Below are positions 23,659 to 60,744 of a DNA stretch of 64,000 bases, piece by piece; the stretch's first letter is position 1, and each line of letters starts with the position of its first letter. Source of the stretch: an uncultured Candidatus Saccharibacteria bacterium (GTDB taxonomy: Bacteria; Patescibacteriota; Doudnabacteria; UBA920); assembly GCA_964384035.1 (NCBI GenBank), contig CAYLIB010000001.1:135636-199635 (forward strand). Direction: 5' to 3'. The position numbers and the translations under genes were made by a program. The notes under the pieces are model-generated. The model had not been told where the DNA came from, searched no databases, and was given only the letters and a program-made list of their open reading frames with translations.

Positions 23659-23675
23659 GCGAGTTTATTTTATAA
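23640..23675. terminator. Bidirectional terminator hairpin between convergent genes 22786 and 23670
   Basis: Stem aaataaacccgctt / aagcgagtttattt with flanking T/A runs. Confidence 0.5.
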
Positions 23676-26600
23676 AACTTCTATATGGCAACCCTTCTTC
23701 TTATACTTATTCCACAGAGTCTGGCTACTACCTTGTTTAGTAATAATCATTGAGAGAGGAACAGGTCTGTCTTGTATAGGGTCTTCACCAGATATTGGTG
23801 GACCGAATATTATCAGTACCTCTGCATCAGGATGATGTCCTTTAAAAGTATGAAGTTCTTCATAGCGGTACCTGTATCCATCATTATCTCGGAAACTGTC
23901 ATCAAGTGCTATTCCCCCCACTTCTAATCGATCATATAAATCATCGAGGAAATGAATATATTCTGCACCCCGTTTGTAAACTGTCGACCTAACAGCTAGC
24001 TCTATCGAAATCTGATTCTTTTGTATCTTCGATATTTCGGAAATATCTCCTAGCATAACATTGGGAGGGAATGCATCTAGGTGCTCATAAAAGTTTTCGT
24101 TAGCCTTTAAGAACTCTAAGGGGTTTTCTTGTAAAGCTGACAGTGCAATTTCCAGGCCTCGCGGTCTTATTTTTTTAGTGTATTCAACTTCGTTTGCAGA
24201 GATATGTACGCTGGGTCCTCCGGGGACAGCGGGTAATCCATCTAACTTCTCTGTTAGTGTAGGCCAAATAGCTTTCAAATTATTGATATTTTTATTTATA
24301 CCCGAGTAGAAATCTGTATCATAGCGCACTCCCATCTCCGTTGTCCCTGTCTTAAGGCTCAGAATTCTGTAAAGATAATCGGTAATCCGCAAACGTTCAG
24401 AGGTGTCCATTTTAGTTCCAGTACGTTCTTCCAGTTTTTCAAAATCTACAATTCTTTCAAGAACAGGTTGAAGTGAAAAGTAAACATTGTCCGCAAGTCC
24501 AAATTCCATATACCCCCGAGATAACCCAGTACCAAAACGATCTTTCATACTTTGCCCGCTTCCCGGCCCTATCTCTAGTAAGATAGGCTTAGGAAGTTCG
24601 GGATTCCTTTTAGATTTGAATTCTTCAAGTAGTCCATTTAGATCAACACCAAACCGCTCTTCGTAACTCCTAAGATCTCTATCCACACTCCAATGAAACT
24701 CAGGAACTATCTTGAGCTTTCCCTCTTGTTGCAATACTTCAAGTAATATACTTTTTGAATCACTCGTGCCCATACTTTCAAGTAATAGTTCTTGCTCTCT
24801 AGAGAAGTCACGAAGATCAACAACACCCTTCTTATTAAGTAGTTCCGCTATGTGAGAAAAATCAGATCGAAGTACCGCATCGGAAGGAACTTCCTTTTGT
24901 AGGTCGTCAGCAAGTTTTTGTATGATTTCAGTCCTAGACAATTCCGTTCCGGATTCCTTGAGTCGTCTTTTGCAGTCCATTAGGTAGTATTTACCCCTTC
25001 GTAAAAAAGATTGCAAAAGTGACTCTTCCGAAAGCGAAATATTAGGGTATAATTCATGCAACCTCGTTAGGGCATTAGCGATTCTCACCTGAATTGTTTC
25101 TGTGTAAGTACGGTAAGAGCCAAATAGAAGCTTAGTATCTTCCTCAGAAGTGCACAGATCTGCTAGCTCAAGTATAGTATGTCCATACTCCGTATCTTCA
25201 GATGCAACTAAAAATGACCTAAGTATATCCTCTTTTGCCTCAGGATGATTACTTAGCGTATATTTTAGTTTATCCGCCGTAGTCTTATCGCCTTCGTCAG
25301 CGAGAAATCTAAGTAAGTGAAGCTGTGTACGCAGTGGTAATTCGGAAATGCTTATGCCATAGCGAGAATTAATAGACTCCGTAATATCAGGTGAGTGTAA
25401 ATGTTTAAAAAGAAGTGGTAGATTCCTTTGAGGTAACCCATATGGGTTGTAATCAGGATCTCTTTGCAAATTTTCGTAAGGTACAAAATGAGCATCTATA
25501 GGGGTGTAATCAATATGCGACTCTAATTTTTTCGCGAACTCATGAATGTCTTCTACAAGCTCATTTTTATGTTGTTTAATATATCCCCATTCCGAAATAT
25601 AGGTACGGACCGCGGTTGTTCTTTTTGTATCTACTTCAATGCTTTTTTGTAAATCCGTAAGTTTATTTTTATATACACGCGCATTTCTATCGAAAGCAGC
25701 CAAAACAGCATTATATGAAAGCACAAGCCTTCTCCCAGCTTTAGTTAGAGCGTGTGCTTTACTACTATTTATATTTTCATCTAAATCGAGAAATCGTTTT
25801 GCATTTAAAATGCCGATGCAGTCGACCGCTATATTAAAACATTCTTCCAGACTGTTTTTTTCTTTATATCGCGAATACTCTTGCCATAGTATAGAAAGCC
25901 GTTGAATTCCGGGCTCTCTATTTTCAGAAAGAATGCTAGGCATAGTTGCTTCAAACTTTTGTAAAAATGCATCAGTCGCACCTTCATTAGTATCACCCAT
26001 TTCTTTATTGAGTCTTTCGTCCTCATCTCGTAAACTTTGGTTGAATTTTACCAGTACTTCTTGAGATGTGAGTAATTTCTGTATCCTTTCACCCAGTGCT
26101 GGAGATATCTCTCTCCACAAAGAATGTCCACTCCTTTCTACAAGCCCTATTTCAACCGCCTTATGACCTAATCGGTTTTCTATATATTCACTGTGTACAA
26201 AAAGCTCTCGCGGATGAGAAAAATTTTCAGAATTTAATTGCAGAACCGTATTAATTTCACGCTTAGAAAGCCCCTCTGTTTTTGGAAGCCTACTTGTGTC
26301 TATATGAGTAATATATTTTGGTAACCTCGAATGGTCGGTAATGGCCACCGCATCACTGGCAACCTTTAAAAAAGTATCACCTTTATATAAAGGTACATCT
26401 GGTTCCAGTTGGCGACTAAGATTCCAAGATGCTAGACGCTCAGCCTCTGTAACGCTAGCGGATAGTCTTGCTCTAGAACGTTGGGATTCATAAGTTACTA
26501 TACCGAAGCGAGGGTCATTGATCTCTTGAGATATTATTTTTAAAGCACCTCGAGATTTAGTTTCCAACAACTCTGTACGTGCATTTATCTGAATTTCGGT

Positions 26601-27263
26601 AATAAGATTTTGAATTGACTCCACAGAGCGCATAGAGTTTCCGTAGCCCAGGCCTCTAATATTTGCCGCGACTGCGACTAACTGGTCTAGGCTATCTAAC
26701 TGTTCTTCTATCGGGGCATGTGCAATAAACTTCTTAATGATTTCAGTATCACCATCATCCAGTCTTTCAATCTCCATAGTAAAAGATCTACCAAAGATAC
26801 CTTGCAATTCCTGGTTGCGACTAGCTCTAAGTGATAAAAAGAAAATATCCGAAGGGTGGAGACTTGAGACAATAGAGTTCGAGTCACTAAATAATGATTC
26901 ATGTATCGAACTAAAAGTAGTCTGAACCTTTGATCTATCAGATTCACGCCTTGAGTAATCCTCCATCGTATCTATTAAATCTTCACAAAAGAGTTTTATG
27001 AGTTTAGTGATATCAGTATTTACACCACCTATTTTTCTAAAATAGTCTACAATAACATCTCTGGGTATATTGATATTTTGGTTCTCTGACGAATTGACCA
27101 CCTTATCAAAAAGTCCATTAGCAATAATATGAATTTCCTTTCGTATCGAGGGGTCATCTAGATCTCTCATTTTTTTATCATCTCGAGCTTCTCCAGTAAG
27201 ATTCTGGTTGTTTTCAGGATTAGCAATTTCACTCAGAAATTTTGTGTCAAAATTTTCATGCAT
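23670..27263 (-). CDS. Giant partner protein (1197 aa), helical with a C-terminal Rossmann/SAM-methyltransferase-like domain; paralogue of 49449..52463
   Basis: Shared blocks with the 1004-aa protein: RFGVD...LLEIGPGSG (vs LLELGPGSG), AFPPNVMLGDIS (vs AFPEGVIIGDFS), VLIIFGPPISGED (vs FLIVTGPGFEGKE). Arranged tail-to-tail with TrmB copy 1. Confidence 0.65.
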   Translation of the reverse strand: MHENFDTKFLSEIANPENNQNLTGEARDDKKMRDLDDPSIRKEIHIIANGLFDKVVNSSENQNINIPRDVIVDYFRKIGGVNTDITKLIKLFCEDLIDTMEDYSRRESDRSKVQTTFSSIHESLFSDSNSIVSSLHPSDIFFLSLRASRNQELQGIFGRSFTMEIERLDDGDTEIIKKFIAHAPIEEQLDSLDQLVAVAANIRGLGYGNSMRSVESIQNLITEIQINARTELLETKSRGALKIISQEINDPRFGIVTYESQRSRARLSASVTEAERLASWNLSRQLEPDVPLYKGDTFLKVASDAVAITDHSRLPKYITHIDTSRLPKTEGLSKREINTVLQLNSENFSHPRELFVHSEYIENRLGHKAVEIGLVERSGHSLWREISPALGERIQKLLTSQEVLVKFNQSLRDEDERLNKEMGDTNEGATDAFLQKFEATMPSILSENREPGIQRLSILWQEYSRYKEKNSLEECFNIAVDCIGILNAKRFLDLDENINSSKAHALTKAGRRLVLSYNAVLAAFDRNARVYKNKLTDLQKSIEVDTKRTTAVRTYISEWGYIKQHKNELVEDIHEFAKKLESHIDYTPIDAHFVPYENLQRDPDYNPYGLPQRNLPLLFKHLHSPDITESINSRYGISISELPLRTQLHLLRFLADEGDKTTADKLKYTLSNHPEAKEDILRSFLVASEDTEYGHTILELADLCTSEEDTKLLFGSYRTYTETIQVRIANALTRLHELYPNISLSEESLLQSFLRRGKYYLMDCKRRLKESGTELSRTEIIQKLADDLQKEVPSDAVLRSDFSHIAELLNKKGVVDLRDFSREQELLLESMGTSDSKSILLEVLQQEGKLKIVPEFHWSVDRDLRSYEERFGVDLNGLLEEFKSKRNPELPKPILLEIGPGSGQSMKDRFGTGLSRGYMEFGLADNVYFSLQPVLERIVDFEKLEERTGTKMDTSERLRITDYLYRILSLKTGTTEMGVRYDTDFYSGINKNINNLKAIWPTLTEKLDGLPAVPGGPSVHISANEVEYTKKIRPRGLEIALSALQENPLEFLKANENFYEHLDAFPPNVMLGDISEISKIQKNQISIELAVRSTVYKRGAEYIHFLDDLYDRLEVGGIALDDSFRDNDGYRYRYEELHTFKGHHPDAEVLIIFGPPISGEDPIQDRPVPLSMIITKQGSSQTLWNKYKKKGCHIEVL

Positions 27264-40217: not shown

Positions 40218-42227
40218 ATGACCCATTCACCCGAACACCAAACAAATTTAGAATTTGAATTAAGCAACGAGGAGTTAGATAGTTTGCTCGAGGAAAATAC
40301 CCCAAAAAGCAGATCAAAACTTCACAAATTTTTCGAGCACATACAAATAGAAAAAGAGAAATTTGAGTCAGAGCACATTGGAGATCCAGACCTAGAAGCG
40401 AATCCTGCAATATTAAGAGCTCTTGTCTGGGCTCAAAAAGCAAAGGACAAAACCGATAACTATTTACTACAATCCCACCTCGAAGATTTCCTAAATAGTC
40501 GAATAGATTTCGCCACAGACGAGGCTGAGGCAGGGGACGGATCCCCAGGAGCCGGTGCTTACAAGAACCGGTTCATGTTTAAAAATCAATTACGGTCTGC
40601 TCAGAACCGTTTAAAGTTCGGTCTAGTCTCAGAAACTAATCCAGCTCGTGAAGCTTTTGTTCCGCTCTCAAAGAGTCAAAACCTTTTTGCGCTTTATAGG
40701 AATGGGCAGTTAGCAGAAATTTACGAACAACCAGAAAGTTTGCAGGATTTCGAGTCTCTAGAAAATGAATTAGTAGCCGGGAATCCAAAAGAAGGTGAAG
40801 AAATCTATTCATCTGTAGTGAATATGTTACGTGATCTTCGAGAAAACCCACGAACCAATAACTTAACCACGCAAGTTTTACTAAAAGACACCATAGCAAA
40901 GTTCGATGAAGAGCACCCCAACTTCTATTTCGATTTTAAAGATTTGGAAAAGTGGGGAGAAGACCCAAACAAGCTTCATCCGGTTGTAATTGCTTGGCTT
41001 GTAATGCACAACGAGGACATGCCCCGTCTGAAAGAGGTCTTAAATCGTATTCCAAAGCCAAGCAGTGTAAGTAAGGAGAGGTTAGAATCACTAGCCTTCC
41101 CTTACCAGGACCCTTCAGGATCAACTTTAGCTGAATACGAATATCTAGTTAGTCCTGCCATGCGATACAGAATAGAAAAAGATTTCGGATTAGAAATAAG
41201 TAATCTGCCAATTCATGCCCAGGCTCAGTTTCTTAAGTACCTAAACTCAAGCAACGTAGAAAGTTTTGAAAAAGTTAAGTCAGTTATCGGTTCGCTAAAA
41301 GACGAAGGTCTACGTAGTGGTGCAGCATCTGCTTTCTTCTCGTGTTTAGAAAATCCTGAATATGCACAAGGGGTATTAAATCTAGTTGAAGATCTAAAAG
41401 ATAAACCCGAAGATCTTGAATCAGTTATTAGTTCATACAACCAAATAGTTGAAAGTTCGTTCAAAGCCGAACACTATCTGGGTCGTATAAATGACGCATC
41501 AGATCTAGAAGAAAATGACATTGCACAGGTGGCAAAGCGCATGCAGCATAAAGCCAACGAAATAGTTAAGCAGTACCAAAAGGGCGCTTCTAAAGAAACC
41601 TTAGGACTCGAGAAAAAACGCCTCTTAGAAGCAGAAATAGAGGTAATAGGTTTAGCCTCAGCCTATAAAAATGTCTCCAAAGAACACCCCGCAAAACTAG
41701 AATCGTTAACAGCCAGTGAATTAACTGAGAAACTTAAAAAAGAAATAGTAGAAACCTATCGTCGTGCCAGAAACCTAGACAGAGACTATCAAGGTCAGCA
41801 AGAAGTTGTAGAAGCACAAGTAAAAGATTTAGAGCATCACATGGAACCAAACTCCGGTGCGGTGTTCAAGTTAACCAGAGTCGGCGGAAAATTAATGGGT
41901 TTTATGTATCTACAACCAGAAAACAAAGACACTCTGTGGGTGGGCGGTCTAACCGTGAGGCCCGAGGCCCAGAGCGATAACGTGGTAGATGTTTTTCAGC
42001 AAGACATGAGAGAAGAAATTTACCCAAGATTCAATGTGGTAATAGAGGTCTTAGCCGAAAAAGAAAGCCTGCAAAGAGCCTATGGGTTCGAAGGGTTTGC
42101 CTATAAGAAAGGAGAGGACGGAAAAGATAAGGTAATAAACGAATTCGCCGGTGTACAGTTTGTGGTCATGGAGAGACCTAAAGGTGTGAAGCAAGCTATG
42201 CGAAAATCTAAAACAGCTACTGCTTAG
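40218..42227 (+). CDS. Large partner protein (669 aa), helical with a GNAT-like C-terminal domain; paralogue of 59578..60744 and partly of 49449..52463
   Basis: Shared module with the 1004-aa protein: LHPVV and AEYEYL...P.H.Q..L......E.F..V...I.......A..FF.C. GNAT-like C-terminus GGKLMGFMYLQ...GGLTVRPEAQ...V, similar to the 406-aa protein (IVAGVYYIDE...GGFNVRKSYQ). Confidence 0.6.
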   Translation: MTHSPEHQTNLEFELSNEELDSLLEENTPKSRSKLHKFFEHIQIEKEKFESEHIGDPDLEANPAILRALVWAQKAKDKTDNYLLQSHLEDFLNSRIDFATDEAEAGDGSPGAGAYKNRFMFKNQLRSAQNRLKFGLVSETNPAREAFVPLSKSQNLFALYRNGQLAEIYEQPESLQDFESLENELVAGNPKEGEEIYSSVVNMLRDLRENPRTNNLTTQVLLKDTIAKFDEEHPNFYFDFKDLEKWGEDPNKLHPVVIAWLVMHNEDMPRLKEVLNRIPKPSSVSKERLESLAFPYQDPSGSTLAEYEYLVSPAMRYRIEKDFGLEISNLPIHAQAQFLKYLNSSNVESFEKVKSVIGSLKDEGLRSGAASAFFSCLENPEYAQGVLNLVEDLKDKPEDLESVISSYNQIVESSFKAEHYLGRINDASDLEENDIAQVAKRMQHKANEIVKQYQKGASKETLGLEKKRLLEAEIEVIGLASAYKNVSKEHPAKLESLTASELTEKLKKEIVETYRRARNLDRDYQGQQEVVEAQVKDLEHHMEPNSGAVFKLTRVGGKLMGFMYLQPENKDTLWVGGLTVRPEAQSDNVVDVFQQDMREEIYPRFNVVIEVLAEKESLQRAYGFEGFAYKKGEDGKDKVINEFAGVQFVVMERPKGVKQAMRKSKTATA

Positions 42228-42243
42228 TTAGTAGCTGTTTTAA
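42214..42243. terminator. Hairpin with T-run at the convergent junction of 40218 and 42224
   Basis: Stem cagctac / gtagctg with a 10-nt loop, then ttttaattt. The two genes' stop codons overlap within it. Confidence 0.4.
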
Positions 42244-43015: not shown

Positions 43016-43142
43016 ACCTATATAATAGCACAAAACAAAAATATTTTCAATACTTTTTGAAAATAATCACTAATAAAATATATAAATTTAACCCTATTTT
43101 CATTAATCAATTGAAAATAAGCAATATTTTATTCAATAATTA

Positions 43143-45302: not shown

Positions 45303-47483
45303 ATGCATACTTCCGAAGGACAATCGCCTGATCACTCATTTCAACCATTCACACATGAACAACCTATCCCAGAGGCCGAGTCTTTTTACACAGAAACCCC
45401 AGAGCAACAAAAAACTCAAGAACTCCCCGAAAAAATTCAGGGTGTCTTTAGCGAATTTATAAAACATAAAGTCACTTTCCTAACGCGAACAATGCAGGGC
45501 CTAGAAAGTCAGGTTTATGGTAGAAAAATGTCCACTTTGTCGGAAATACAAGCAGGCCTGCTCCCTCATTTCCAAGCAGTCTTAAATGAATTTACAGAAG
45601 GGGCACCCAATAAAGAAGACGAAGCAAGTGTAAACGCAAAAGCTATAGAGTTAGTGAACAAACTTCTAGAAACGTTTAGTAGAATTCAACTTATAATTGC
45701 CACCGCAACCGAATCTGCCATTCAAGTACAAGATAAACTTCGTTCAATTTCTAAAGATTTAAAATTAGATGAAGACATACAGCTCGCACTCTTCCGTCCG
45801 CTAATGTTCCAAGCCCGCCTGGAAGATGAGATGCAAAGAAATACTCCAGAAGCTTTAGAAAAACTGAAATTAGCGTCTGCCCAACACGACCATATTACGC
45901 CCACCCCTCACGTAACAAGCCACGGAATAGAAATTCTCATTAAAGATTTAGAAGAAAGAGGAGCTTTTTCAGAAGAAGATTACGAAGCTGTTAGAGCTTT
46001 GCAAGGTGCGGGTGAAGCACAGGCGCAAAAATTAAAACAACAAGCCGAAACCAACGCTAAAAAATACGCACCAGCTATTAGAGAATTAAGAGAGCTTCTT
46101 AAGTTTCAAAACCAATTCGAAAAACAAGTAAATCTATTAATACTAAACCCTGAAACAGGCGAGCTACCTAAAGATATCTTCTCAAACCTAGAAAGAGACG
46201 CAGAAAATTACACTCCTGAGCTTGCAACTTCGGAACACCAAGCATTTTTCCCTGTTGGTATAACAAAAGATTTACCCAAAAAACAACAAGAGTTCAAAGG
46301 AGACTTAAAATCAGCAAAACCCGTAGAAATCTACGCCTACCTTTTTTGGCTAAACAACCAAAATCAAAAAATTACATTAATGGTTGCAGACACCGCCCAA
46401 GTACCTAACTACATGGGTTTATATGACTTAAGTGAACAAGAAGCAAAAACCGCAAGCGCTCAAATAGGGGAGCGAGAAGCCAGTAAATACCAAAAAATTA
46501 TAGACACCTTTGGCTTACAAAATATAGAAATTGTAAGGTATCAAGATTTTTTAAAAGACAAACAAGATTTTAAAGCAAACCAAGAACTAGTAGAAAAATT
46601 ACTCAGTCATCCGCTGTTCAAGAAAGCAAGAGAAGCAATGTTGCCGGCATCACTCAAAGGTAATGGCGCGGAGAGCTTTAGTAAGTATGGCGCCGAAGAA
46701 CTCGCCGTAATCCTTTCCACCCCCGGCAGAAAAATTTCACACCAAAACGAAGCCCGTTACGATGCTCTCGCTTCGGTTATTCAAAATGTGGAAAAAGAAT
46801 ATGGTAAAACCGTCTTTGCCGATCCAAACTCCACCGAATTTATAGAGGCATACGACGCAGTCCTCGGCGCCCTGCAGTTAAAATTAAAAGCAGAATCAGA
46901 GAAACCTAGTCTAACAGAGGAACAAAAAAATTATTTCGCAAAGGCCGTAGCAGGTCTAAGTTTACTTAGAGAAAGCGAGAAAGATTTTTTAAAGTCGCAC
47001 ATACAAGACTCAAAAGAAAGAGCAAGAGTCCTTCAGCGAAACAAAGTATACGAGAACCTAAGTAGTAAAGTAGAGTACAATTTTTCAGTACCTAGCGTTG
47101 CTACCAGAAGTTTTGGTTGGAAAACCGGTAAAAAAGGGGAGACCGTTTCTACAGTTTCCGGAACAGATCCTTACGCCGACTTTTTCTACCAAGGCGAGTT
47201 CTCTTTCCTTCACGCCAACCAAGTCGTGGCCACTACCGAAGGCTATATTGGGGGAAAAGTCTTAGCTCTAGACCAAGCTAGTCAAACCAAATATGCTGAG
47301 GAATCCACAAAGCCATTATTAACCCACTTCGTTCGCACTCTCCAAAACACCCCACCTGAATACTTTAAAAGTCTGGGTAAAAATAAAGAAGACCTAATTG
47401 CAGAGGCTAAGGAAATCCGCTCTGTTGCTGAAGCCACGTTCTTTATTCAAAAATATATAGTAAGACCTACACAAGAAATCTAA
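45303..47483 (+). CDS. Large helical partner protein (726 aa); tail-to-tail partner of TrmB copy 5
   Basis: E/K/Q-rich helical protein resembling the other partner giants. Convergent with 47510..48274. Confidence 0.55.
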   Translation: MHTSEGQSPDHSFQPFTHEQPIPEAESFYTETPEQQKTQELPEKIQGVFSEFIKHKVTFLTRTMQGLESQVYGRKMSTLSEIQAGLLPHFQAVLNEFTEGAPNKEDEASVNAKAIELVNKLLETFSRIQLIIATATESAIQVQDKLRSISKDLKLDEDIQLALFRPLMFQARLEDEMQRNTPEALEKLKLASAQHDHITPTPHVTSHGIEILIKDLEERGAFSEEDYEAVRALQGAGEAQAQKLKQQAETNAKKYAPAIRELRELLKFQNQFEKQVNLLILNPETGELPKDIFSNLERDAENYTPELATSEHQAFFPVGITKDLPKKQQEFKGDLKSAKPVEIYAYLFWLNNQNQKITLMVADTAQVPNYMGLYDLSEQEAKTASAQIGEREASKYQKIIDTFGLQNIEIVRYQDFLKDKQDFKANQELVEKLLSHPLFKKAREAMLPASLKGNGAESFSKYGAEELAVILSTPGRKISHQNEARYDALASVIQNVEKEYGKTVFADPNSTEFIEAYDAVLGALQLKLKAESEKPSLTEEQKNYFAKAVAGLSLLRESEKDFLKSHIQDSKERARVLQRNKVYENLSSKVEYNFSVPSVATRSFGWKTGKKGETVSTVSGTDPYADFFYQGEFSFLHANQVVATTEGYIGGKVLALDQASQTKYAEESTKPLLTHFVRTLQNTPPEYFKSLGKNKEDLIAEAKEIRSVAEATFFIQKYIVRPTQEI

Positions 47484-47512
47484 AAAACAGCCTCCCCGCG
47501 GAGGCTGTTTTA
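47484..47512. terminator. Bidirectional terminator between 45303 and 47510
   Basis: Stem cagcctcccc / ggggaggctg (47488-47507) with flanking A/T runs. Confidence 0.55.
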
Positions 47513-48274
47513 GTTTGTGCTTTTCCATACTAGTTCGAACACCGAAAGTAATGTTTGGTAAATTTCTTTGTTCTCTATAATAACCGCCACATGGTTATTT
47601 TCTTTAAACGTAACAAACGAAACCTTTCCAGAATAAATGTTTACCTCGCTCGCAAAAGGGAATAGACCATACTCCACCCATTTATTCTCTGTAAACTTAT
47701 TAGCCACATAGTTTTTTGTATACGCAACGGCATCCGGATGGTTAAGTACCAATGCCCGCTCGTGAATTCCTAGTTTCAGTCGCTTTGGACCATAATATTT
47801 TTCATTCCATTCGCGCAAGTATTTTAAATAGGTGCTCAAATCGGAAAACGTTGCCAACTTTCCATCTGGGTTGTGTGTTAGCGTATCTTCCAAAACCAAT
47901 TTAACTCCAGCAAGTCCTTCATAAAATCTAACTCCTGGTTTGGCTGCTAAAGTTTGGTACTGGTTACGTAAAGCGGGGAGGTGGGCAAGCAGTTTACTTT
48001 CAGCTTCCGCAAGAGAGTTTTTTTGTTTTGCCACAAATACTTCCAAGCTCTGTGGATCCTTAGCCGCAAACACCGCCCGGTTGTTCGTACCCGCGTACTC
48101 TTCTATAAGCCCCTTACTCTTAAGCGAGTCCAAAGCATAATAGCAACTACCCCGAACAATACTCGTAGCCGAAACAATAGTTTTCATCTGCGAAGGACCA
48201 ATAGAAAGTAGGGTAGTAAGAATCTTACTCTCCCGTTCATTCAGCCCCACAGATTGTAATAACTGCTCGTTCAT
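47510..48274 (-). CDS. TrmB-family winged-HTH transcriptional regulator paralogue (copy 5)
   Basis: N-terminus GLNERESKILTTLLSIGPSQMKTIVSATSIVRGSCYYALDSLKSKGLI. C-terminus LLSVFELVWKS. Confidence 0.65.
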   Translation of the reverse strand: MNEQLLQSVGLNERESKILTTLLSIGPSQMKTIVSATSIVRGSCYYALDSLKSKGLIEEYAGTNNRAVFAAKDPQSLEVFVAKQKNSLAEAESKLLAHLPALRNQYQTLAAKPGVRFYEGLAGVKLVLEDTLTHNPDGKLATFSDLSTYLKYLREWNEKYYGPKRLKLGIHERALVLNHPDAVAYTKNYVANKFTENKWVEYGLFPFASEVNIYSGKVSFVTFKENNHVAVIIENKEIYQTLLSVFELVWKSTN

Positions 48275-49448: not shown

Positions 49449-52400
49449 ATGAGCAGGCGTCCAGAAGAAGTACTTATGTTTGGGGAACAAGAACCTCAAG
49501 TACGAGAATTCAAAGAACCAAAAACACTCGAACAGCAAAAACACGAAGAGCAAATTGCGCTCAATTCTTTTTTGTATGCCGAACCCGCCGAACAGCTAGA
49601 GGTAGACGAAAGCAATCTAGGCTCTTTAATCTCCGAACTCTTAAATTCTCCCTCCGGACAAAGAGCAAAAACAATAATTAACTCTATTGTAGAGTACATA
49701 CAAAGCAGTAAAGAACCGCGCCTGAGAGTTAAACAAGCAGAAAAAGAACTAACGTCGAGTCATATTCACCTAAACATCGAAACACTAACCCTGTTAGGGG
49801 AATTAGATCGGTTTCGGGAAGAGTTCGAAATGGATCCAGAACTCGCCGAAGAGTTAGATTTACAAGATGTACTAGATAATCCCACTAAAGAAAAACTACT
49901 GTACCTTGCAGGAAAAAATGACCGAAAAGGAAATATAGTACTCCATAAAATTCTCGACGCAGCCAAACGCCAGCTCGTTACCCTTCAAAACCTATACGTA
50001 AACCCAAGCACACACGAACCCGAACCCGCAGTCTTTGCTCTTTCCGAGCAAATGCTTGAGTTTGCCCAGGAAGCCAAAGCTGTATGTAAAAACGATCTTC
50101 TGTATAGGCACATATTAGATTACGAAAACACCCGCAGAACAATAGCAACTGGTCTACCCGGTGGCTCCGAAGCAAGTACAGAATATGCATTTGAAAGACT
50201 TATTGAATCTTCAAGCAATCGGCTTGCGTTAGGTCTGTACTCGGAAGAGGGAAGAGATTCGGCCGATGCATGCATTGCGCTAACAGACTCTCTAGTGGGG
50301 GAATATAAGAATGGTAAACTCTTCCGTGTGTACACAAAACCAAGTTCAAACGAAACAGAAACAATTAAAACTGCATGCATTAAGCAAAATCACACAGACG
50401 ATGAATACATTTATGAAGCCCTCCAAAGAGAAATAGACGAATACACCGAACACACCCCGCTTAACTGGAAACTCGAAACTAAACTTCTAATTCATGAATT
50501 CCATAAACATTTAGAGCAGGAAAAACGGACATTTTTCTTCGACCTAAGCAGAATTAACGGCTGGGAAAAGCTCCACCCTGTAGTATTAGACGAAATATTA
50601 GCAACCAACGAGTATGCCGCATTCGCACAAGGTAAGTTGCAGAAAGCAAAACCCGTAAGCAGTGAGGTCTTACAAAATTTACTCGCACCAGCAGGCGCAG
50701 AAAAAGGTGCTGAATACGAATATCAGTACCTCATGAGTCTTGAATACAGAAGTTTTCTGGAAAACTCGCTTGGTATCCCAGTCGAAACATTACCCCCGCA
50801 CGTGCAAGTAGAGTTGCTTCGGGTCAACAACGCGCTTACGAAAGAGAAATTTCACCAAGTCTTAAAAGCCATTAGAGATTCAAAGTTTCCCACAGAACTT
50901 GCTACTGTGTTCTTCTGCGCCCGAGCAGATGAAAGATATATAGACGTAGTCCTAGATATTTTAGAAAAAACAAAATACAAATCTTCCCTCCAAACCACGC
51001 TTTTCGAAGGCTATGCAAACCATGTGGAAGCAGTGCACGGGAAAACGAATGAAGTTCTGCGAGAGCTAGAGCAAAAAGGATTCACATCTCTCTCTTATAC
51101 CGATGTTGCAAAAGCACTACTAGCAGAAAGCGACTTTGCGCTTAAAGACCTCCAGGCAAAACTCGAAGCGCAACCAGATAATGCTAATCAAATAGCACGA
51201 AACTTCCAAAACCTTTTAGGGCAGACGAGCGCAAGCGAACTCTATAAACGTGGCACCTTCGAACAAATTGCTAGAGCTTTCGAAAGTCCAAAAGCAGATA
51301 TCGATCCAGCAGAATGGGCTGCTTCCCAAAAGGTAATCCAACAAGAAATGCTGGAGGGGATAAATAAAGCTCTGTATTTAAGGATGCTGGCAGAAAAAGG
51401 GTTTCTAGCTCCAAAGCCTGCAATATTTTGGGAAATTTCCAGAGGGCTTAAAGAAAGTAATATTCGTTTTGGTGTAGACACAGAAAAGTTTTTAAACAAA
51501 GTAGCAACACGTACCAATGGTGGTGTGCTACTAGAGCTAGGGCCTGGGAGTGGACGAGGCAAAGAAGATCGAGCACACAGCCGGCTTAGTGAATTTCAAG
51601 ACATCGCCATAGGTAATAAAGTCTTTTTCGATCTCGAGCCCATTATTGGATCCTTTTTAGATATAGAAAAACTTGAAGCAGACCTAAACTCGACATTGAA
51701 TGAGGAAGATAGGGCGCTACTTATCGATACGCTCACAAAAGCACTCATGGTCGAGTCAGGTGGGCTTGCCAAAGACCATATTCAGTACGATTCCGAAACA
51801 CTCGAATATCTTGCAAAAGACATAAACACACTTAAAGTAGAATGGGCTAAACATAAAACCAAACTCAAAGGAGTAACCGCCATTCCTAGTAGCGAGGGGG
51901 CAATTGTAGAAGGGGATACAGTACGCTTCCCAAATAAAATCGACATAACCCATCTTGCTGACGCGCTAAATAAAATTGCACAGTCACCGTATCACTATCT
52001 AAATTCACAAACAAAACACCAAGATCTATACACGCACATAAATGCATTCCCAGAAGGTGTCATAATTGGAGACTTCAGCAACTTGAAGCGTTTAAAGAAA
52101 GAAAGCCTGGCCGGAGTTATGGCTATTCGCTCAGATGTCTACATAGAAGGCGCAAATTACGTGGAGCATCTCGCTACGGTCGCCGAAAAACTGCAAGATG
52201 GTGGTGTCTATGTAAGCGACGCCTTCCGCGAACTCTACGGTAAAGGTTACCGCCAGACAGAAATAGAAGCTGTAAAAAAAGTATTACAAGAAAAATTTCC
52301 AAAGGACACGTTCGAATTTTTAATAGTCACCGGCCCTGGTTTCGAAGGCAAAGAAGTAGAAAAAACAATCCCGCTAGCCGTCTACCTAACCAAAAACGCC

Positions 52401-52463
52401 TCCTCTAAAGAAGAAGCTAGGCAAACTCTAGTTTCAGAACGGTACAGTGTGAATGAAATTTAA
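49449..52463 (+). CDS. Giant partner protein (1004 aa), helical with a C-terminal Rossmann/SAM-methyltransferase-like domain; paralogue of 23670..27263
   Basis: LLELGPGSG motif-I-like block and several further collinear blocks shared with the 1197-aa protein. Mid-region AEYEY module shared with the 669-aa protein. Confidence 0.65.
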   Translation: MSRRPEEVLMFGEQEPQVREFKEPKTLEQQKHEEQIALNSFLYAEPAEQLEVDESNLGSLISELLNSPSGQRAKTIINSIVEYIQSSKEPRLRVKQAEKELTSSHIHLNIETLTLLGELDRFREEFEMDPELAEELDLQDVLDNPTKEKLLYLAGKNDRKGNIVLHKILDAAKRQLVTLQNLYVNPSTHEPEPAVFALSEQMLEFAQEAKAVCKNDLLYRHILDYENTRRTIATGLPGGSEASTEYAFERLIESSSNRLALGLYSEEGRDSADACIALTDSLVGEYKNGKLFRVYTKPSSNETETIKTACIKQNHTDDEYIYEALQREIDEYTEHTPLNWKLETKLLIHEFHKHLEQEKRTFFFDLSRINGWEKLHPVVLDEILATNEYAAFAQGKLQKAKPVSSEVLQNLLAPAGAEKGAEYEYQYLMSLEYRSFLENSLGIPVETLPPHVQVELLRVNNALTKEKFHQVLKAIRDSKFPTELATVFFCARADERYIDVVLDILEKTKYKSSLQTTLFEGYANHVEAVHGKTNEVLRELEQKGFTSLSYTDVAKALLAESDFALKDLQAKLEAQPDNANQIARNFQNLLGQTSASELYKRGTFEQIARAFESPKADIDPAEWAASQKVIQQEMLEGINKALYLRMLAEKGFLAPKPAIFWEISRGLKESNIRFGVDTEKFLNKVATRTNGGVLLELGPGSGRGKEDRAHSRLSEFQDIAIGNKVFFDLEPIIGSFLDIEKLEADLNSTLNEEDRALLIDTLTKALMVESGGLAKDHIQYDSETLEYLAKDINTLKVEWAKHKTKLKGVTAIPSSEGAIVEGDTVRFPNKIDITHLADALNKIAQSPYHYLNSQTKHQDLYTHINAFPEGVIIGDFSNLKRLKKESLAGVMAIRSDVYIEGANYVEHLATVAEKLQDGGVYVSDAFRELYGKGYRQTEIEAVKKVLQEKFPKDTFEFLIVTGPGFEGKEVEKTIPLAVYLTKNASSKEEARQTLVSERYSVNEI

Positions 52464-52487
52464 AACTCCCCTTAGGGGAGTTTTTTT
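52462..52487. terminator. Bidirectional terminator between 49449 and 52486
   Basis: Stem ctcccc / ggggag with loop tta, then T7. Confidence 0.55.
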
Positions 52488-53250
52488 AAACAATCATTTT
52501 CCAAAACGTTTCAAATAGTATCCGGTAGTTGTCTGCAATTTCTTGGTTATCTATTAGAATTGCTACCGGATGTTCTTTCTGAAAACTAGTTTGTAGTACG
52601 TACCGGTCAAAAATTTTAATATCCATCCGAAACGGAAATTTCTCTAGTGGTAGTGTCTTAACTTCAAGCAGTAGCTTGGGGTCTGTTTTGTTTACCCTGT
52701 TTACAGCAGGGGAGATAGTGCGCGATTTAATTCCGCGTTTCACCCGCTTTTTTATATAGATATCAACATAGTCTCTAAAGTAAGCATCCATATCGCCTTT
52801 TTCTTCAAAACTCACAACCGTCTTAGCGTTTTCGAGTAAGAACTCATACGCCTGAATTATTCCTTCCTTCCCTTCAAAAAACCTAACCCCTGGACGCCCC
52901 GTGGCTAAATTAAAGTCGATAGTCATTTTCTCAAGAGAGCCAGAAACCGCTTGCTCTGCTACCTTTGCAAGTTCTGCTTTTTTCTCCGCCCATTCCTTCA
53001 GTTTAATTGGATGCGAAGCTTCAAACACCGCCACTTTACCAGGTTCATCTTTTTTAATAACCAGGCCTATCTCTAGTAATCGCTCCAGAATTTTATACAC
53101 CAGTGTTCTTTCTACTGGAATTTTTACACTAATTTTAGAAGCCGGCATCTGTCCATGTATAAGCAGGGCTTCATACACCAAAGCCTGTTCAACGCTAAGT
53201 CCAGAAAGGAGGAGGGTATTATGATGTGAAAAATTTTGAGGAATGTTCAT
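52486..53250 (-). CDS. TrmB-family winged-HTH transcriptional regulator paralogue (copy 6)
   Basis: N-terminus MNIP...LSGLSVEQALVYEALLIHGQMPASKISVKIPVERTLVYKILERLLEIGLV. Closest to copy 1 at 22786. Confidence 0.7.
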   Translation of the reverse strand: MNIPQNFSHHNTLLLSGLSVEQALVYEALLIHGQMPASKISVKIPVERTLVYKILERLLEIGLVIKKDEPGKVAVFEASHPIKLKEWAEKKAELAKVAEQAVSGSLEKMTIDFNLATGRPGVRFFEGKEGIIQAYEFLLENAKTVVSFEEKGDMDAYFRDYVDIYIKKRVKRGIKSRTISPAVNRVNKTDPKLLLEVKTLPLEKFPFRMDIKIFDRYVLQTSFQKEHPVAILIDNQEIADNYRILFETFWKMIV

Positions 53251-53437
53251 GGCTAATATTATTTGTAATTCCCAACTTCATTAGGAATCTTAAGAATTTT
53301 GACCTTTACTACACTAATTATAGCACAATAAAATAATTTTGTGAAGCCATCTTCACAAAATAAGTAAATAAAAATAGGTAGAAAGTACCTATTTTTATTA
53401 TACATACACAAATAAGGCTTAATTATGTGAAATACTA

Positions 53438-53466
53438 TTGACATTTTTCATAAAATACTGTATACT
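53438..53466 (+). promoter_or_regulatory. Conserved cassette promoter (copy B)
   Basis: TTGACA, 17 nt, TATACT. Followed by a leader hairpin and T-run (53519-53577) and a roughly 270-nt GC-rich leader. Confidence 0.5.
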
Positions 53467-55060: not shown

Positions 55061-55087
55061 TAGTTAGCTGTTTTCCAAAGGAGGCAA

Positions 55088-58714: not shown

Positions 58715-58836
58715 CACGAGGGTCACCCTCATCACACACCGGGGACGATAAAACATACGTCCCCCTCTTTTTCCAGCCTGTGACCACCATCGTCGTCGGC
58801 ATGGAAATTGAGAAAAATTTTATAAGGAGAAAAATT

Positions 58837-59514: not shown

Positions 59515-59577
59515 AAAAATCCCTTGCTTTTTTTATTCCCCCGGATTTCGCTATACTATCTCTATAATAAAAAACCT

Positions 59578-60744
59578 ATGCCCGAAACCCATCACGCAGA
59601 ATATGATTTTCCAGAATTTCGCATCCCTTCTGAGACAGAATTCATAGAATACCAAGAAGGTAAAGAAGCGGAATATATAAACTCGATACTAGATATTAAA
59701 ACAGCAGAAAAAATACCAGAACGCGCCAAGGTCCCACTGGTAAGGTTTCTACAAAAATATGCAGAATACCCAACAGGTGCAACAGCACAGCTCCGTTTCG
59801 GAATACAAAGGCTGCCCGAAAAAGCTCGGATAGAGCTATTAAGTGGGTTCGCTGCAGCAGATATAAGTGAAGACTACGCCCTAACACTTGTTTCTCTTGC
59901 GCGCAACGTAAGAGACACTCGTGCAGTATCCGAATTAATGTCTACGTTTAACGCAATTCTAGACAACGCCGAAAAAGTAGACGACTTTTTGGGAGAATCA
60001 TATAAGTCGGAAGGTGTAGACAAAGAAGCAATGAGCACAGCCGCCAAGCAAAGCCTTGTACGTCGTGCAGCACGTGTCCTGAGTAACCAAGGGATAGGTA
60101 TAGGCCTTAGTTCTATAACAATTGAGCAAGCACGCAAAGAGCTTACACATATTAACGCAGACGCGCTGCTAACCACACAAACCATTCGAGCAGCACTTGA
60201 AAACGATTCAGAGTTTACATTAGAAAAGCTTAAAACGCTCACCATAGAATCCGGCTACGGAAACAATATACCACCAGAAAATATTCAAGCTCTCATAGAA
60301 ATAAACACAGAAAATTGGACAACCAAAGAAGGGAAAGAAAAAACTTCAAGTGAGTATATCGAAGAATTGAATCGTAAATTTGAAGAGCTAAAAAATAACC
60401 CCAATGCAAAGCTTGCGGTATTAAAAGACAAAGAAGAGATAGTCGCCGGAGTCTATTATATAGACGAGCGCGGCGAAGACGGAGAGATAAAGAGTATATA
60501 TGCCGGCGGGTTTAACGTACGCAAAAGCTATCAGAAAGAAAAAGTGGGTGAGTTATTTTTGAGCCAAACGCTTGCCGACGAACGAAAAAGAAACTTAAAA
60601 ATAAGAAGCATAACCAGTCCCAACCAACCTATGCTTCCTAAGTATATAAAAATGGGTTTTAAAGAAGGACGACATTTTACTTTAGAAACTGGCGAACCCA
60701 GAGTAGAGCTAGAAATTCCACCCGATGCATCACGCCCCGCCTAA
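59578..60744 (+). CDS. Partner protein (about 388 aa) with a GNAT-like C-terminal domain; short paralogue of 40218..42227
   Basis: C-terminus IVAGVYYIDERGEDGEIKSIYAGGFNVRKSYQKEKVGELF is homologous to that of the 669-aa protein. ATG at 59578 preferred; the track start at 59524 lies inside the upstream terminator. Confidence 0.5.
   Translation: MPETHHAEYDFPEFRIPSETEFIEYQEGKEAEYINSILDIKTAEKIPERAKVPLVRFLQKYAEYPTGATAQLRFGIQRLPEKARIELLSGFAAADISEDYALTLVSLARNVRDTRAVSELMSTFNAILDNAEKVDDFLGESYKSEGVDKEAMSTAAKQSLVRRAARVLSNQGIGIGLSSITIEQARKELTHINADALLTTQTIRAALENDSEFTLEKLKTLTIESGYGNNIPPENIQALIEINTENWTTKEGKEKTSSEYIEELNRKFEELKNNPNAKLAVLKDKEEIVAGVYYIDERGEDGEIKSIYAGGFNVRKSYQKEKVGELFLSQTLADERKRNLKIRSITSPNQPMLPKYIKMGFKEGRHFTLETGEPRVELEIPPDASRPA

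What the first reader, a model, noticed from the sequence alone, without database searches (positions are those of the whole stretch)
23670..60744. Partner proteins form a modular family: shared helical module with interchangeable methyltransferase-like or GNAT-like C-termini
The 1197-aa and 1004-aa giants share several collinear blocks: RFGVD...LLE(I/L)GPGSG, which resembles SAM-methyltransferase motif I (as in KsgA VLEIGPGTG); AFP..V(M/I)(L/I)GD(I/F)S; and a (I/V)(I/V)(F/T)GP(P/G) C-terminal block.

The 669-aa and about 388-aa proteins instead end in a GNAT-like fold, with acetyl-CoA-type motifs (V/I)(A/M)G(F/V)(M/Y)Y, then GG(L/F).VR, then a Q/R-x-x-G-like segment.

The 669-aa and 1004-aa proteins share a mid-region module: LHPVV, then AEYEY(L/Q)...P.H(A/V)Q..(F/L)L...N....E(K/S)F..V.....D......A..FF(S/C)C.

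The shuffled architecture is that of a polymorphic enzyme family tied to a regulator, not of housekeeping enzymes.
Basis: partly seen in the sequence, partly recalled or inferred. Interest (0 to 1): 0.6.

Follow-up and report, generated by a model that had tools for sequence, protein, structure and literature searches.

The report
Modular transferases paired with TrmB-like regulators
A Candidatus Saccharibacteria genome carries an array of large, unannotated proteins that combine shared helical modules with swappable methyltransferase-fold, acetyltransferase-fold or unknown end domains; each gene sits tail-to-tail with its own TrmB-type DNA-binding protein, whose sequence type tracks the end domain, and this gene-pair design, found across ultra-small bacteria, was absent from the papers searched.

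Summary
All quoted motifs are present and the similarities are far beyond chance: 1197-aa vs 1004-aa, E=2e-58; 669-aa vs 1004-aa, E=5e-35.

AlphaFold models support both fold calls. The GPGSG domain is a class I SAM-methyltransferase fold (pLDDT 93.7) with a ~140-residue insertion. The 669-aa C-terminus is a GNAT fold. The shared mid-region is all-helical.

The picture is larger than reported:
- An exhaustive HMMER search finds 646 cluster representatives, in several candidate-phyla-radiation lineages. Those with a source name are called "hypothetical" or "GNAT family".
- The 726-aa protein at 45303-47483 also belongs, through a third ~500-aa C-terminal module (D3).
- In 5 of 5 window cases and 12 of 13 external loci, the partner gene abuts or overlaps a convergent TrmBL2-like gene.
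- These regulators cluster by the partner's C-terminal domain type (13 of 13 nearest neighbours; 0 of 20,000 permutations).

Function is inferred only. I favour cognate pairs in which the transferase acts on, or signals to, its TrmB-like protein, which controls strong divergent promoters leading into strain-variable orphan genes (about 35-40%). Ligand sensing and a toxin-immunity-like cassette remain open.

The parts
23670..27263 (-). P1, 1197 aa. Architecture: H head (aa 1-600; 25464-27263) + helical M module (aa ~605-807; 24843-25451) + MT-fold domain (aa ~840-1197; 23673-24746).
   Evidence: BLASTP vs P3 E=2e-58. A5 and A6 HMM hits. The head is homologous to heads of P0005-P0008, P0013 and others.
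22786..23658 (+). R1, TrmBL2-like winged-helix protein (290 aa), convergent with P1. MT-type clade.
   Evidence: PF01978 E=2e-10, above the cutoff. 51% identical to R6. Clade assignment.
40218..42227 (+). P2, 669 aa. Architecture: N module (aa ~17-250; 40266-40967) + helical M module (aa ~251-490; 40968-41687) + GNAT-fold domain (aa 493-653; 41694-42176). The acetyl-CoA loop is degenerate.
   Evidence: BLASTP vs P3 E=5e-35. AF2 pLDDT 80.3. Foldseek hits are GNATs. Motif deviations N579T and G590V.
42224..43033 (-). R4, TrmBL2-like protein (269 aa), convergent with P2 with a 4-bp overlap. GNAT-type clade.
   Evidence: PF01978. 37.5% identical to R7, E=1e-59. Clade.
45303..47483 (+). 726-aa partner of R5. 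Unrelated N-terminus + D3 module (aa 203-724; 45909-47474), a third C-terminal type shared with N+M proteins elsewhere.
   Evidence: phmmer vs P0076 E=5e-102 and vs P0073 E=1e-93. No PDB match; only a weak CDPS Pfam signal.
47510..48274 (-). R5, TrmBL2-like protein (254 aa), convergent with the 726-aa gene. D3-type clade.
   Evidence: PF01978. Clusters with the regulators of L007, L009 and L013, whose partners carry D3.
49449..52463 (+). P3, 1004 aa. Architecture: N module (aa ~146-372; 49884-50564) + M module (aa ~373-610; 50565-51278) + MT-fold domain (aa ~650-1004; 51396-52460).
   Evidence: AF2 pLDDT 93.7. Foldseek hits are class I SAM MTases. Motif map.
52486..53250 (-). R6, TrmBL2-like protein (254 aa), convergent with P3. 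MT-type clade.
   Evidence: PF01978. Regulator profile vs TrmBL2 chain 5box, E=8e-11 over the full length.
59524..60744 (+). P4, 406 aa (388 aa from the ATG at 59578). Architecture: truncated M module (aa ~52-240; 59677-60243) + GNAT-fold domain (aa ~253-405; 60280-60741).
   Evidence: Pfam Acetyltransf_10 E=1.2e-4, below the cutoff. phmmer vs P0092 E=6e-30. A6 HMM E=3e-78, with P4 itself a row of A6.
60754..61572 (-). R7, TrmBL2-like protein (272 aa), convergent with P4. GNAT-type clade.
   Evidence: PF01978. Clade.
42209..42242 (.). Terminator-like hairpin (14-bp stem) at the P2/R4 junction, translated in both directions: P2 ends KTATA*, R4 ends KTATN*. Similar hairpins lie at 47484-47511, 52462-52484 and 60734-60752.
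   Evidence: Terminator scan and the junction sequences.
53438..53466 (+). Consensus sigma70-type promoter TTGACA-N17-TATACT, pointing away from R6. Equivalents: 22627-22655(-) for R1, 43143-43171(+) for R4, 48391-48419(+) for R5, 61767-61795(+) for R7.
   Evidence: A similar promoter-like match lies upstream of the TrmB-like gene in 7 of 8 external regions.
53336..53361 (.). Inverted repeat ATTTTGTGAAG-N4-CTTCACAAAAT over the -35 of R6's own promoter; a candidate operator. Analogous repeats lie at 43042-43065, 48292-48311 and 61665-61689.
   Evidence: the repeat finder. Own promoters.

Best explanation
Shown (about 0.9).
- The window holds five members of a large, unannotated, modular protein family found in Saccharibacteria and other candidate-phyla-radiation (CPR) bacteria.
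- Members combine alternative N-terminal parts (an H head, an N module, or neither), a shared all-helical M module, and one of at least three C-terminal domains.
- The C-terminal domains are: a divergent class I SAM-methyltransferase fold with intact ExGxGxG and a ~140-residue insertion; a GNAT fold; or a ~500-aa module, D3, of unknown fold.
- Each gene ends tail-to-tail against, or overlapping, a TrmBL2-like winged-helix gene. In four of the five window pairs the scan finds a terminator-like hairpin at the junction, and the regulators have promoter-like sites of their own, so the two genes look like separate transcription units.
- The TrmB-like proteins form clades that track the partner's C-terminal domain type, not its N-terminal modules. 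The co-inherited unit is therefore [C-terminal domain + cognate TrmB-like gene].

Inferred (about 0.35-0.4).
- The pairs are cognate modifier and DNA-binding-protein pairs.
- The TrmB-like protein represses its own promoter and the strong divergent promoter next to it. That promoter leads into strain-variable orphan genes.
- The partner uses its N and M modules as scaffold or sensor. It uses its transferase domain to methylate or acylate the cognate TrmB-like protein, or to make a ligand for it, which switches the repression.
For: - Homology and modularity.
- Family size: 646 cluster representatives at E<=1e-3 and 128 at E<=1e-30.
- MT fold: AF2 pLDDT 93.7. All 50 listed PDB hits are SAM-dependent MTases or close fold relatives. 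E66/G68/G70/G72, R264, D294 and R297 are invariant or nearly so.
- GNAT fold. 14 of 36 relatives hit Pfam Acetyltransf_1, best E=4e-10.
- Regulators: PF01978 in all seven. Their profile aligns over the full length with TrmBL2 chains at E=8e-11.
- Pairing: 5 of 5 in the window and 12 of 13 external loci, including Doudnabacteria and a Patescibacteria-group MAG.
- Regulator clades match the C-terminal type: clean NJ clades; 13 of 13 nearest neighbours share the type and 0 of 20,000 permutations reach the observed value. R5's partner lacks N and M, yet R5 groups with the regulators of N+M+D3 proteins.
- C-terminal types are polyphyletic on the M-module tree.
- Terminator-like hairpins at four junctions, and all nine best promoter matches of 42000-61900 in the regulator upstream regions.
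- Inverted repeats over the regulators' own -35 hexamers.
- The nearest GNAT structures include protein acetyltransferases: HP0935, Ard1, RimI, Naa50.
Against: - No experiment or complex prediction shows contact or modification between partner and regulator.
- The nearest MT-fold structures are mostly small-molecule or tRNA methyltransferases (NNMT, UbiG, MnmM). Their scores are weak (E 3e-4 to 5e-3, TM normalised by the target 0.25-0.55), which says nothing for a protein substrate.
- P2 lacks two conserved GNAT residues and P3 lacks the beta2 Asp, so some copies may be inactive.
- Clade tracking could reflect ancient co-duplication of linked genes without any interaction.
- The trees are unbootstrapped NJ trees on few sequences.
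- The promoters and operators are pattern matches in AT-rich DNA.
- The regulator's position, far from the partner's own promoter, shows only that it is badly placed to control the partner. It does not show what the regulator does control.
Confidence: 0.4

Rival explanations
1. Ligand-sensing pair. The C-terminal domain of each TrmB-like protein binds a small molecule that the partner's transferase makes or consumes (a methylated or acylated metabolite). The regulator then adjusts transcription of the neighbouring operon. Under this reading, clade tracking reflects ligand specificity.
For: - By general knowledge, TrmB-family regulators are classically effector-controlled, for example by sugars.
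- The MT-fold domain's nearest structures are small-molecule methyltransferases: NNMT, INMT, PNMT, UbiG, EgtD.
- Regulators track the C-terminal type.
Against: - The regulators resemble TrmBL2 over their full length, and the full two-domain TrmB only over its first ~130 residues. A review groups TrmBL2 with single-domain TrmB homologues and describes it as a global repressor and chromatin-binding protein (PMC9426492).
- The large conserved N and M modules are unexplained by a simple metabolic enzyme.
- There is no metabolic gene context.
Confidence: 0.25
2. Conflict cassette, analogous to polymorphic toxin/immunity or toxin-antitoxin systems. The conserved N-terminal modules carry interchangeable enzymatic 'warheads', and the adjacent cognate TrmB-like protein neutralises or controls each warhead.
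For: - A conserved N-terminal part with swappable C-termini, and a neighbour gene that co-varies with them.
- Five paralogous pairs within 37 kb of one genome.
- Cassette gain and loss, and frameshifted copies, between strains with 94-97% identical flanks.
- By general knowledge, GNAT toxins exist (TacT, AtaT).
- The neighbouring DNA is strain-variable orphan genes.
Against: - The neighbour is convergent, with its own promoter-like site and, in four of five window pairs, a terminator-like hairpin. It is not a co-transcribed downstream immunity gene.
- One protein family pairs with three unrelated folds, unlike fold-specific immunity proteins.
- No secretion or trafficking domain and no known defence, toxin or phage family was found, and no hit in IMG/VR.
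- The proteins are far larger than type II toxins.
Confidence: 0.15
3. No functional coupling. The partner and the TrmB-like gene are merely neighbours, kept together by repeated duplication of a two-gene block in compact CPR genomes.
For: - The two genes appear to be separate transcription units.
- Co-duplication alone can give congruent clades.
Against: - Adjacency holds in 12 of 13 external loci from different CPR lineages, at 20-40% protein identity and in otherwise unrelated neighbourhoods.
- Regulators follow the C-terminal type even where the N-terminal modules differ or are absent.
Confidence: 0.1

Closest known systems
Class I (Rossmann-fold) SAM-dependent methyltransferases, e.g. MnmM (8h26), UbiG (5dpm), NNMT (2iip)
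   Same: Order of secondary-structure elements; ExGxGxG motif I after beta1; Asp (Asn in P3) after beta2; GDx after beta3; beta6-beta7 hairpin.
   Different: - A ~140-residue insertion between beta2 and beta3.
- No Pfam or PDB sequence-level match.
- Family-specific invariant R264, D294 and R297.
- Fused to large helical modules.
- No (N/D)PP(Y/F) motif.
GNAT acetyltransferases, e.g. Listeria 3fnc, H. pylori HP0935 (8iyo), Ard1 (4pv6), Ta0821 (3c26)
   Same: Full GNAT topology. Y622 and the G626-F627 motif in alpha4 are conserved. Most relatives have (R/Q)-G-S-x-(L/I)-G.
   Different: - Sits at the end of proteins of 400 to about 930 aa, after the N and M modules.
- P2 and its closest relatives lack the loop Gly and the conserved Asn.
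- P2 has no Pfam hit, and P4 is below the Pfam cutoff.
TrmBL2 of Thermococcales (5box, 5bpd, 5bqt), a global repressor and chromatin protein
   Same: The regulator profile aligns with TrmBL2 end to end (E=8e-11). Same size (~260 aa) and a winged-helix domain matching PF01978.
   Different: - Bacterial (CPR) rather than archaeal.
- Multiple paralogues per genome.
- Each paralogue is locked to a modular transferase gene.
- No evidence here of chromatin-like binding.
Polymorphic toxin / immunity cassettes (CDI, Rhs, LXG types)
   Same: A conserved N-terminal region with swappable C-termini, a cognate neighbour that co-varies with the C-terminus, and strain-level cassette turnover.
   Different: - The neighbour is convergent and appears independently transcribed.
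- The neighbours are always one winged-helix family.
- The C-termini have transferase folds, not known toxin domains.
- No secretion-linked domain was found.

Membership tests
Class I SAM-dependent methyltransferase fold | Alternating beta/alpha Rossmann-like core, beta1-alphaA-beta2...beta5-alphaE-beta6-beta7, with a terminal hairpin | tested here: met
   The AF2 model (pLDDT 93.7, pTM 0.90) has this order of elements. All 50 listed Foldseek PDB hits are SAM-dependent MTases or close fold relatives, at probability 0.60-1.00 but with weak E-values of 3e-4 to 5e-3.
Class I SAM-dependent methyltransferase fold | Motif I (E/D)xGxGxG in the loop after beta1 | tested here: met
   E66, G68, G70 and G72 are invariant or at least 90% conserved in 38 sequences. 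They lie between beta1 (62-67) and alphaA (73-79).
Class I SAM-dependent methyltransferase fold | Acidic residue at the end of beta2 (ribose contact) | tested here: inconclusive
   Asp is the majority residue (50-80%) and is present in P1. P3 has Asn at this position.
Class I SAM-dependent methyltransferase fold | Sequence-profile membership (Pfam Methyltransf families or PDB sequences) | tested here: not met
   P1 and P3 have no Pfam hit. Only 1 of 38 relatives hits Methyltransf_11, at E=0.007. The family profile finds nothing in PDB sequences.
Amino-methyltransferases with an (N/D)PP(Y/F) motif IV | (N/D)PP(Y/F) catalytic motif | tested here: not met
   The motif is absent from the P1 and P3 domains and from the family consensus.
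Class I SAM-dependent methyltransferase (activity) | SAM binding and methyl transfer | not testable with these tools
   Needs biochemistry.
GNAT superfamily | beta1-alpha1-alpha2-beta2-beta3-beta4-alpha3-beta5-alpha4-beta6-beta7 fold | tested here: met
   P2 residues 493-653 have this order. 100 PDB hits have E<=1e-3; the 50 listed are all GNATs, with TM normalised by the target up to 0.71.
GNAT superfamily | Sequence-profile membership | tested here: met
   This holds for the family: the A6 profile hits Ta0821 at E=5.4e-9, and 14 of 36 relatives hit Acetyltransf_1. P4 alone gives E=1.2e-4, below the cutoff, and P2 alone gives no hit.
GNAT superfamily | Motif A (Q/R)xxGx(G/A), the acetyl-CoA pyrophosphate loop | tested here: inconclusive
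   In the family, R or Q occurs in 19 of 29 sequences and the final Gly in 24 of 29. P4 (QKEKVG) keeps both. P2 (QSDNVV) lacks the Gly and also has N579T.
TrmB family, TrmBL2-like | N-terminal TrmB winged helix (PF01978) above the gathering score | tested here: met
   All seven window regulators score 36.8-62.9 bits against a cutoff of 25.6.
TrmB family, TrmBL2-like | Full-length collinearity with TrmBL2 (winged helix + coiled coil + C-terminal domain) | tested here: met
   Profile positions 19-259 align with 5box residues 15-262 at E=7.8e-11. The full two-domain TrmB (3qph) matches only over its first ~130 residues.
TrmB family, TrmBL2-like | DNA binding or repression | not testable with these tools
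   Only candidate operators are available.
Polymorphic toxin / immunity system | Variable C-terminus on a conserved N-terminal region, with a cognate neighbour that co-varies | tested here: met
Polymorphic toxin / immunity system | Immunity gene co-directional and immediately downstream; a secretion-linked N-terminal domain; a known toxin C-terminus | tested here: not met
   The neighbour is convergent, with its own promoter-like site and, in four of five window pairs, a terminator-like hairpin. Pfam, NCBIfam, PADLOC and PHROGs give no hit to trafficking or toxin domains.
Type II GNAT toxin-antitoxin (TacT/AtaT type) | Small (~170 aa) GNAT toxin co-transcribed with an RHH antitoxin | tested here: not met
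   The window partners are 406-1197 aa and convergent. The neighbour is a winged-helix TrmB-like protein of about 260 aa.
Cyclodipeptide synthase-like (for D3) | Pfam CDPS (PF16715) match or a CDPS-like fold | tested here: inconclusive
   2 of 5 D3 sequences hit CDPS weakly (best E=3e-4, below the cutoff). There is no PDB sequence hit.

The most novel reading that the evidence does not exclude
CPR bacteria may encode a family of TrmBL2-like nucleoid or repressor proteins, each with its own dedicated 'writer' enzyme (methyl-, acetyl- or D3-type transfer) fused to common sensor and scaffold modules. That would be a bacterial, paralogue-specific system for modifying DNA-binding proteins, gating expression of strain-variable gene islands. 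The [writer domain + target] cassettes would be swapped between loci in the way toxin/immunity cassettes are.
Probability: 0.12. Interest if true: 0.9.

Novelty: new variant of a known kind. Interest (0 to 1): 0.6.

Why it matters
CPR (Patescibacteria) genomes are tiny and full of unannotated genes, and very little is known about how they regulate genes. This work defines a large family: 646 cluster representatives at 50% identity. Its H, N, M, MT-fold and D3 modules have no Pfam model. The members with a source name are labelled only 'hypothetical' or 'GNAT family'.

The family obeys a strict genomic rule, one TrmBL2-like partner per protein, matched to the C-terminal enzyme type.

The result gives concrete, testable pairs, for example P3/R6 and P4/R7 with candidate operators. 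These could be used to study regulation or conflict in epibiotic bacteria. It also yields three or four new domain families for annotation.

Tried and rejected
- Word-indexed protein searches found only the query itself and one already-known hit. The exhaustive HMMER search was needed.
- NCBIfam, PADLOC and PHROGs gave nothing meaningful for the partners.
- PDB sequence searches with single domains and with the MT profile were empty.
- The search for related loci rejected alignments A5, A7, A2 and A6 for lack of a conserved stretch. The subset alignment A9 gave only 6 metagenome loci and none in IMG/VR.
- The 726-aa protein shows no similarity to the M module, but it does share D3.
- The 248-aa ORF at 5301-6047 is not a TrmB homologue.
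- No conserved third gene lies on the divergent side of the regulators.
- The idea that convergent overlap implies antisense read-through was dropped after terminator-like hairpins were found at four of the five junctions.
- No tRNA or Rfam element is in the window.
- A bootstrap script timed out. It was replaced by permutation and nearest-neighbour tests.

Full report
**What is there**

The region holds seven TrmB-family genes of about 254-290 aa. PF01978 matches all seven above its cutoff. Each lies tail-to-tail with a different gene.

| Regulator | Coordinates | Partner |
|---|---|---|
| R1 | 22786-23658 (+) | P1, 1197 aa |
| R2 | 31511-32275 (+) | 228-aa ORF |
| R3 | 36201-36965 (-) | 182-aa ORF |
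| R4 | 42224-43033 (-) | P2, 669 aa |
| R5 | 47510-48274 (-) | 726-aa ORF |
| R6 | 52486-53250 (-) | P3, 1004 aa |
| R7 | 60754-61572 (-) | P4, 406 aa (388 aa from the ATG) |

A contig that is 97% identical over P3 is titled as a MAG of an uncultured Candidatus Saccharibacteria bacterium. The window's PolA also occurs on two metagenome contigs. Other window genes (VanW, PilB, PA14, PolA, RecQ) fit a candidate-phyla-radiation (CPR) genome.

**Checking the observation**

The similarities are statistically solid:
- P1 vs P3: E=2e-58 over P1 619-1181 and P3 425-987.
- P2 vs P3: E=5e-35 over P2 16-413 and P3 146-528.
- P1 vs P2: E=1.5e-6 over the mid-region.

P2 and P4 are not significantly similar pairwise. 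A small profile of the mid-region hits P4 only weakly (E=0.009). P4 does match an 836-aa N+M+GNAT relative, P0092, at E=6e-30 over P4 64-405. Several relatives match both the P2 tail and the P4 tail. P4 is therefore a truncated member, with part of the M module plus a GNAT domain.

**Size and architecture of the family**

A word-indexed search saw only the query itself. An exhaustive HMMER search with a P3/P1/P2 profile found 646 cluster representatives at E<=1e-3 and 128 at E<=1e-30.

I mapped the 150 best, plus P4 and the 726-aa protein, with domain HMMs:

| Architecture | Count |
|---|---|
| MT-fold domain alone | 54 |
| M + MT, usually behind an 'H' head as in P1 | 46 |
| N + M + GNAT | 30 |
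| N + M + D3 | 4 |
| N + M + MT (P3 type) | 3 |
| M + GNAT (P4) | 1 |
| D3 alone (726-aa protein) | 1 |

Fifteen further hits, mostly partial, fit none of these classes. Some 'MT alone' entries are split genes; L005 and L006 show this.

D3 is a third C-terminal module of about 500 aa. The 726-aa partner of R5 shares it with N+M proteins (E=5e-102 and 1e-93). A fifth window gene therefore belongs to the same network. One relative carries ordinary Methyltransf_25-type Pfam domains. A closely related strain has a further pair whose 616-aa partner shows classical SAM-methyltransferase motifs by eye.

On an NJ tree of the M module, the C-terminal types are polyphyletic. This fits repeated domain swapping, though the deep branches are weak and unbootstrapped.

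Source names exist for few members. They read 'hypothetical protein' (Candidatus Jacksonbacteria, Parcubacteria group, Candidatus Doudnabacteria) or 'GNAT family N-acetyltransferase' (Patescibacteria group).

**Fold tests**

*Methyltransferase-like domain.* AF2 of P3 residues 631-1004, with a 38-sequence alignment, gave pLDDT 93.7 and pTM 0.90.
- The order of elements is that of a class I methyltransferase.
- ELGPGSG lies between beta1 (62-67) and alphaA (73-79).
- An Asp follows beta2 in 50-80% of members and in P1; P3 has Asn.
- A ~140-residue insertion occupies positions 99-240.
- GDF follows beta3.
- R264, D294 and R297 are invariant or nearly so. The GP(G/P) block is beta6.

All 50 listed Foldseek PDB hits are SAM-dependent methyltransferases or close fold relatives (MnmM, NNMT, UbiG, EgtD and others). 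Their E-values are weak (3e-4 to 5e-3) and TM scores low, as expected with the insertion. No Pfam or PDB sequence-level match exists, and there is no (N/D)PP(Y/F) motif.

*GNAT-like domain and helical modules.* AF2 of full P2 gave pLDDT 80.3.
- The N module is helical with a three-stranded sheet.
- The M module is all-helical.
- Residues 493-653 have the GNAT topology.

All 50 listed PDB hits are GNATs. The family profile hits GNAT chains at E=5e-9, and 14 of 36 relatives pass into Pfam Acetyltransf_1.

P4 keeps the Q...G loop and Tyr622. P2 keeps Tyr622 but has N579T and G590V, at positions conserved in 27 and 24 of 29 sequences. P2 may be impaired or altered.

D3 has no PDB sequence match and only a weak CDPS Pfam signal in 2 of 5 sequences.

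**The regulators**

A profile of ten of these proteins aligns end to end with archaeal TrmBL2 (5box, 5bpd, 5bqt) at E=8e-11. It matches the full two-domain TrmB only over its first ~130 residues. Reviews describe TrmBL2 as a global repressor and chromatin-binding protein (PMC9426492) and list it among archaeal nucleoid-associated proteins (PMC6136690).

**The link between partner and regulator**

In 12 of 13 independent external loci, the partner gene is followed at once by a convergent TrmB-like gene, which overlaps it in eight of the twelve. These loci include Doudnabacteria, a Patescibacteria-group MAG and a 1.03-Mb contig. The exception, L010, has an ExoIII-like gene downstream.

Sixteen regulators form three clean NJ clades that equal the partner's C-terminal type:
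- MT: R1, R6, L003, L006.
- GNAT: R4, R7, L004, L008, L012.
- D3: R5, L007, L009, L013.

All 13 typed regulators have a nearest neighbour of the same type, and 0 of 20,000 label permutations reach the observed separation. R5's partner lacks N and M, yet R5 groups with the regulators of N+M+D3 proteins. The co-inherited unit is therefore the C-terminal domain plus the regulator.

**Transcription signals**

Four of the five window junctions carry a terminator-like hairpin in the scan; only the 47484-47511 hairpin is called on both strands. The P2/R4 hairpin is translated in both directions, so both proteins end in KTAT.

In 42000-61900, all nine promoter-like matches scoring at least 10 of 12 lie in the four regulator upstream regions. 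Four are the regulators' own promoters. Four are strong divergent promoters of the form TTGAC(A/G)-N17-(T/C)ATA(C/A)T. One is an additional match in R4's upstream region, at 43111-43140.

A similar promoter-like match pointing away from the TrmB-like gene lies upstream of it in 7 of 8 external regions. The regulators' own -35 hexamers lie inside inverted repeats, which are candidate operators.

The divergent promoters lead into Pfam-less orphan genes. Apart from one weak pair, these are not conserved between loci of different genomes. In the window they are GC-richer than the core. A strain with 94% identical flanks lacks window 53739-58813 and carries a different extra pair elsewhere.

**Mechanism**

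*Shown:* modular transferase-fold proteins, a strict cognate pairing with TrmBL2-like proteins, signals consistent with separate transcription, and strong divergent promoters beside the regulators.

*Inferred, at about 35-40%:* the TrmB-like protein represses its own promoter and the divergent one. The partner, through its transferase domain, modifies the cognate regulator or makes its ligand. N and M act as scaffold or sensor.

I weigh three rivals:
- Ligand sensing without protein modification, about 25%.
- A toxin/immunity-like conflict cassette, about 15%. Modular swapping and strain turnover favour it. The convergent, apparently independently transcribed neighbour, the single neighbour family for three folds, and the lack of trafficking or toxin domains count against it.
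- Mere linkage, about 10%.

**Novelty**

The folds are known kinds. The H, N, M, MT-fold and D3 modules have no Pfam model. No paper in the searched library combines TrmB with Saccharibacteria, Patescibacteria or 'candidate phyla radiation'. I rate this a new variant of a known kind, of moderate to high interest, with function still untested.

Noticed in passing
window 42209-42242; 47484-47511; 52462-52484; 60734-60752: Four of the five partner/TrmB junctions hold a terminator-like hairpin in the scan; only the one at 47484-47511 is called on both strands. The P2/R4 hairpin is inside both coding ends, so P2 ends ...KTATA* and R4 ends ...KTATN*.
   Followed up: partly
window 22627-22655(-), 43143-43171(+), 48391-48419(+), 53438-53466(+), 61767-61795(+): Near-consensus sigma70-type promoters point away from each regulator gene. 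The spacers are more alike within a regulator clade (R4~R7, R1~R6). A similar promoter-like match occurs in 7 of 8 external regions. The regulators' own -35 boxes sit in inverted repeats.
   Followed up: partly
window 53739-58813 vs L005 5839-10304: A GC-richer 5.1-kb block of orphan ORFs (199, 114, 107, 169 and 853 aa) is absent from a MAG with 94% identical flanks. That MAG instead has a 3.7-kb insertion carrying another pair: a 616-aa protein with classical SAM-MTase motifs, convergent with a TrmB-like gene. The P3 orthologue in that MAG is frameshifted.
   Followed up: partly
window 45909-47474 (726-aa protein, D3 module): The D3 module has conserved motifs (YFPVGIS, KPID.YAYLFWLNNQ, SH.NE.RYD). 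It gives only weak Pfam CDPS hits in 2 of 5 relatives. From memory, the PVGIS motif resembles the catalytic GxS motif of cyclodipeptide synthases; this was not tested.
   Followed up: partly
window 43545-44222: A 225-aa ORF with DEDDh-exonuclease-like motifs (FDAETDG ... HNPVDDA) and no Pfam hit. It is the first gene downstream of R4's divergent promoter.
   Followed up: no
window 35470-36018 and 32298-32984: The partners of the outgroup regulators R3 and R2 are unrelated to the family. One is a 182-aa protein with an HExxHxxGxxH zinc-peptidase motif (weak M57 hit). The other is a 228-aa protein with no Pfam hit.
   Followed up: no
window 13301-15718(-) and 56153-58714(+): The 805-aa and 853-aa orphan proteins, in the two GC-richer blocks next to R1 and R6, share a C-terminal ~100-aa similarity (E=1e-6).
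   Followed up: no
L016 17781-20696: On a 1.03-Mb contig, the divergent side of the TrmB-like gene carries orphan ORFs followed by Prok-E2_D-like and ThiF (E1-like) genes. This looks like a ubiquitin-like conjugation module.
   Followed up: no
window 200-5035 vs L014 4907-9916: The gene order VanW, a 384-aa ORF, then PilB (T2SSE) is shared with a Doudnabacteria contig. There the partner/TrmB pair follows PilB directly. In the window, an unrelated 248-aa ORF and a strong promoter at 6175-6203 follow instead.
   Followed up: no
window 14000-22000, 54000-60000, 62000-64000: GC content is 0.47-0.52 in these blocks, against about 0.36-0.46 elsewhere. The high-GC blocks coincide with orphan-gene runs on the divergent side of R1, R6 and R7.
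   Followed up: partly
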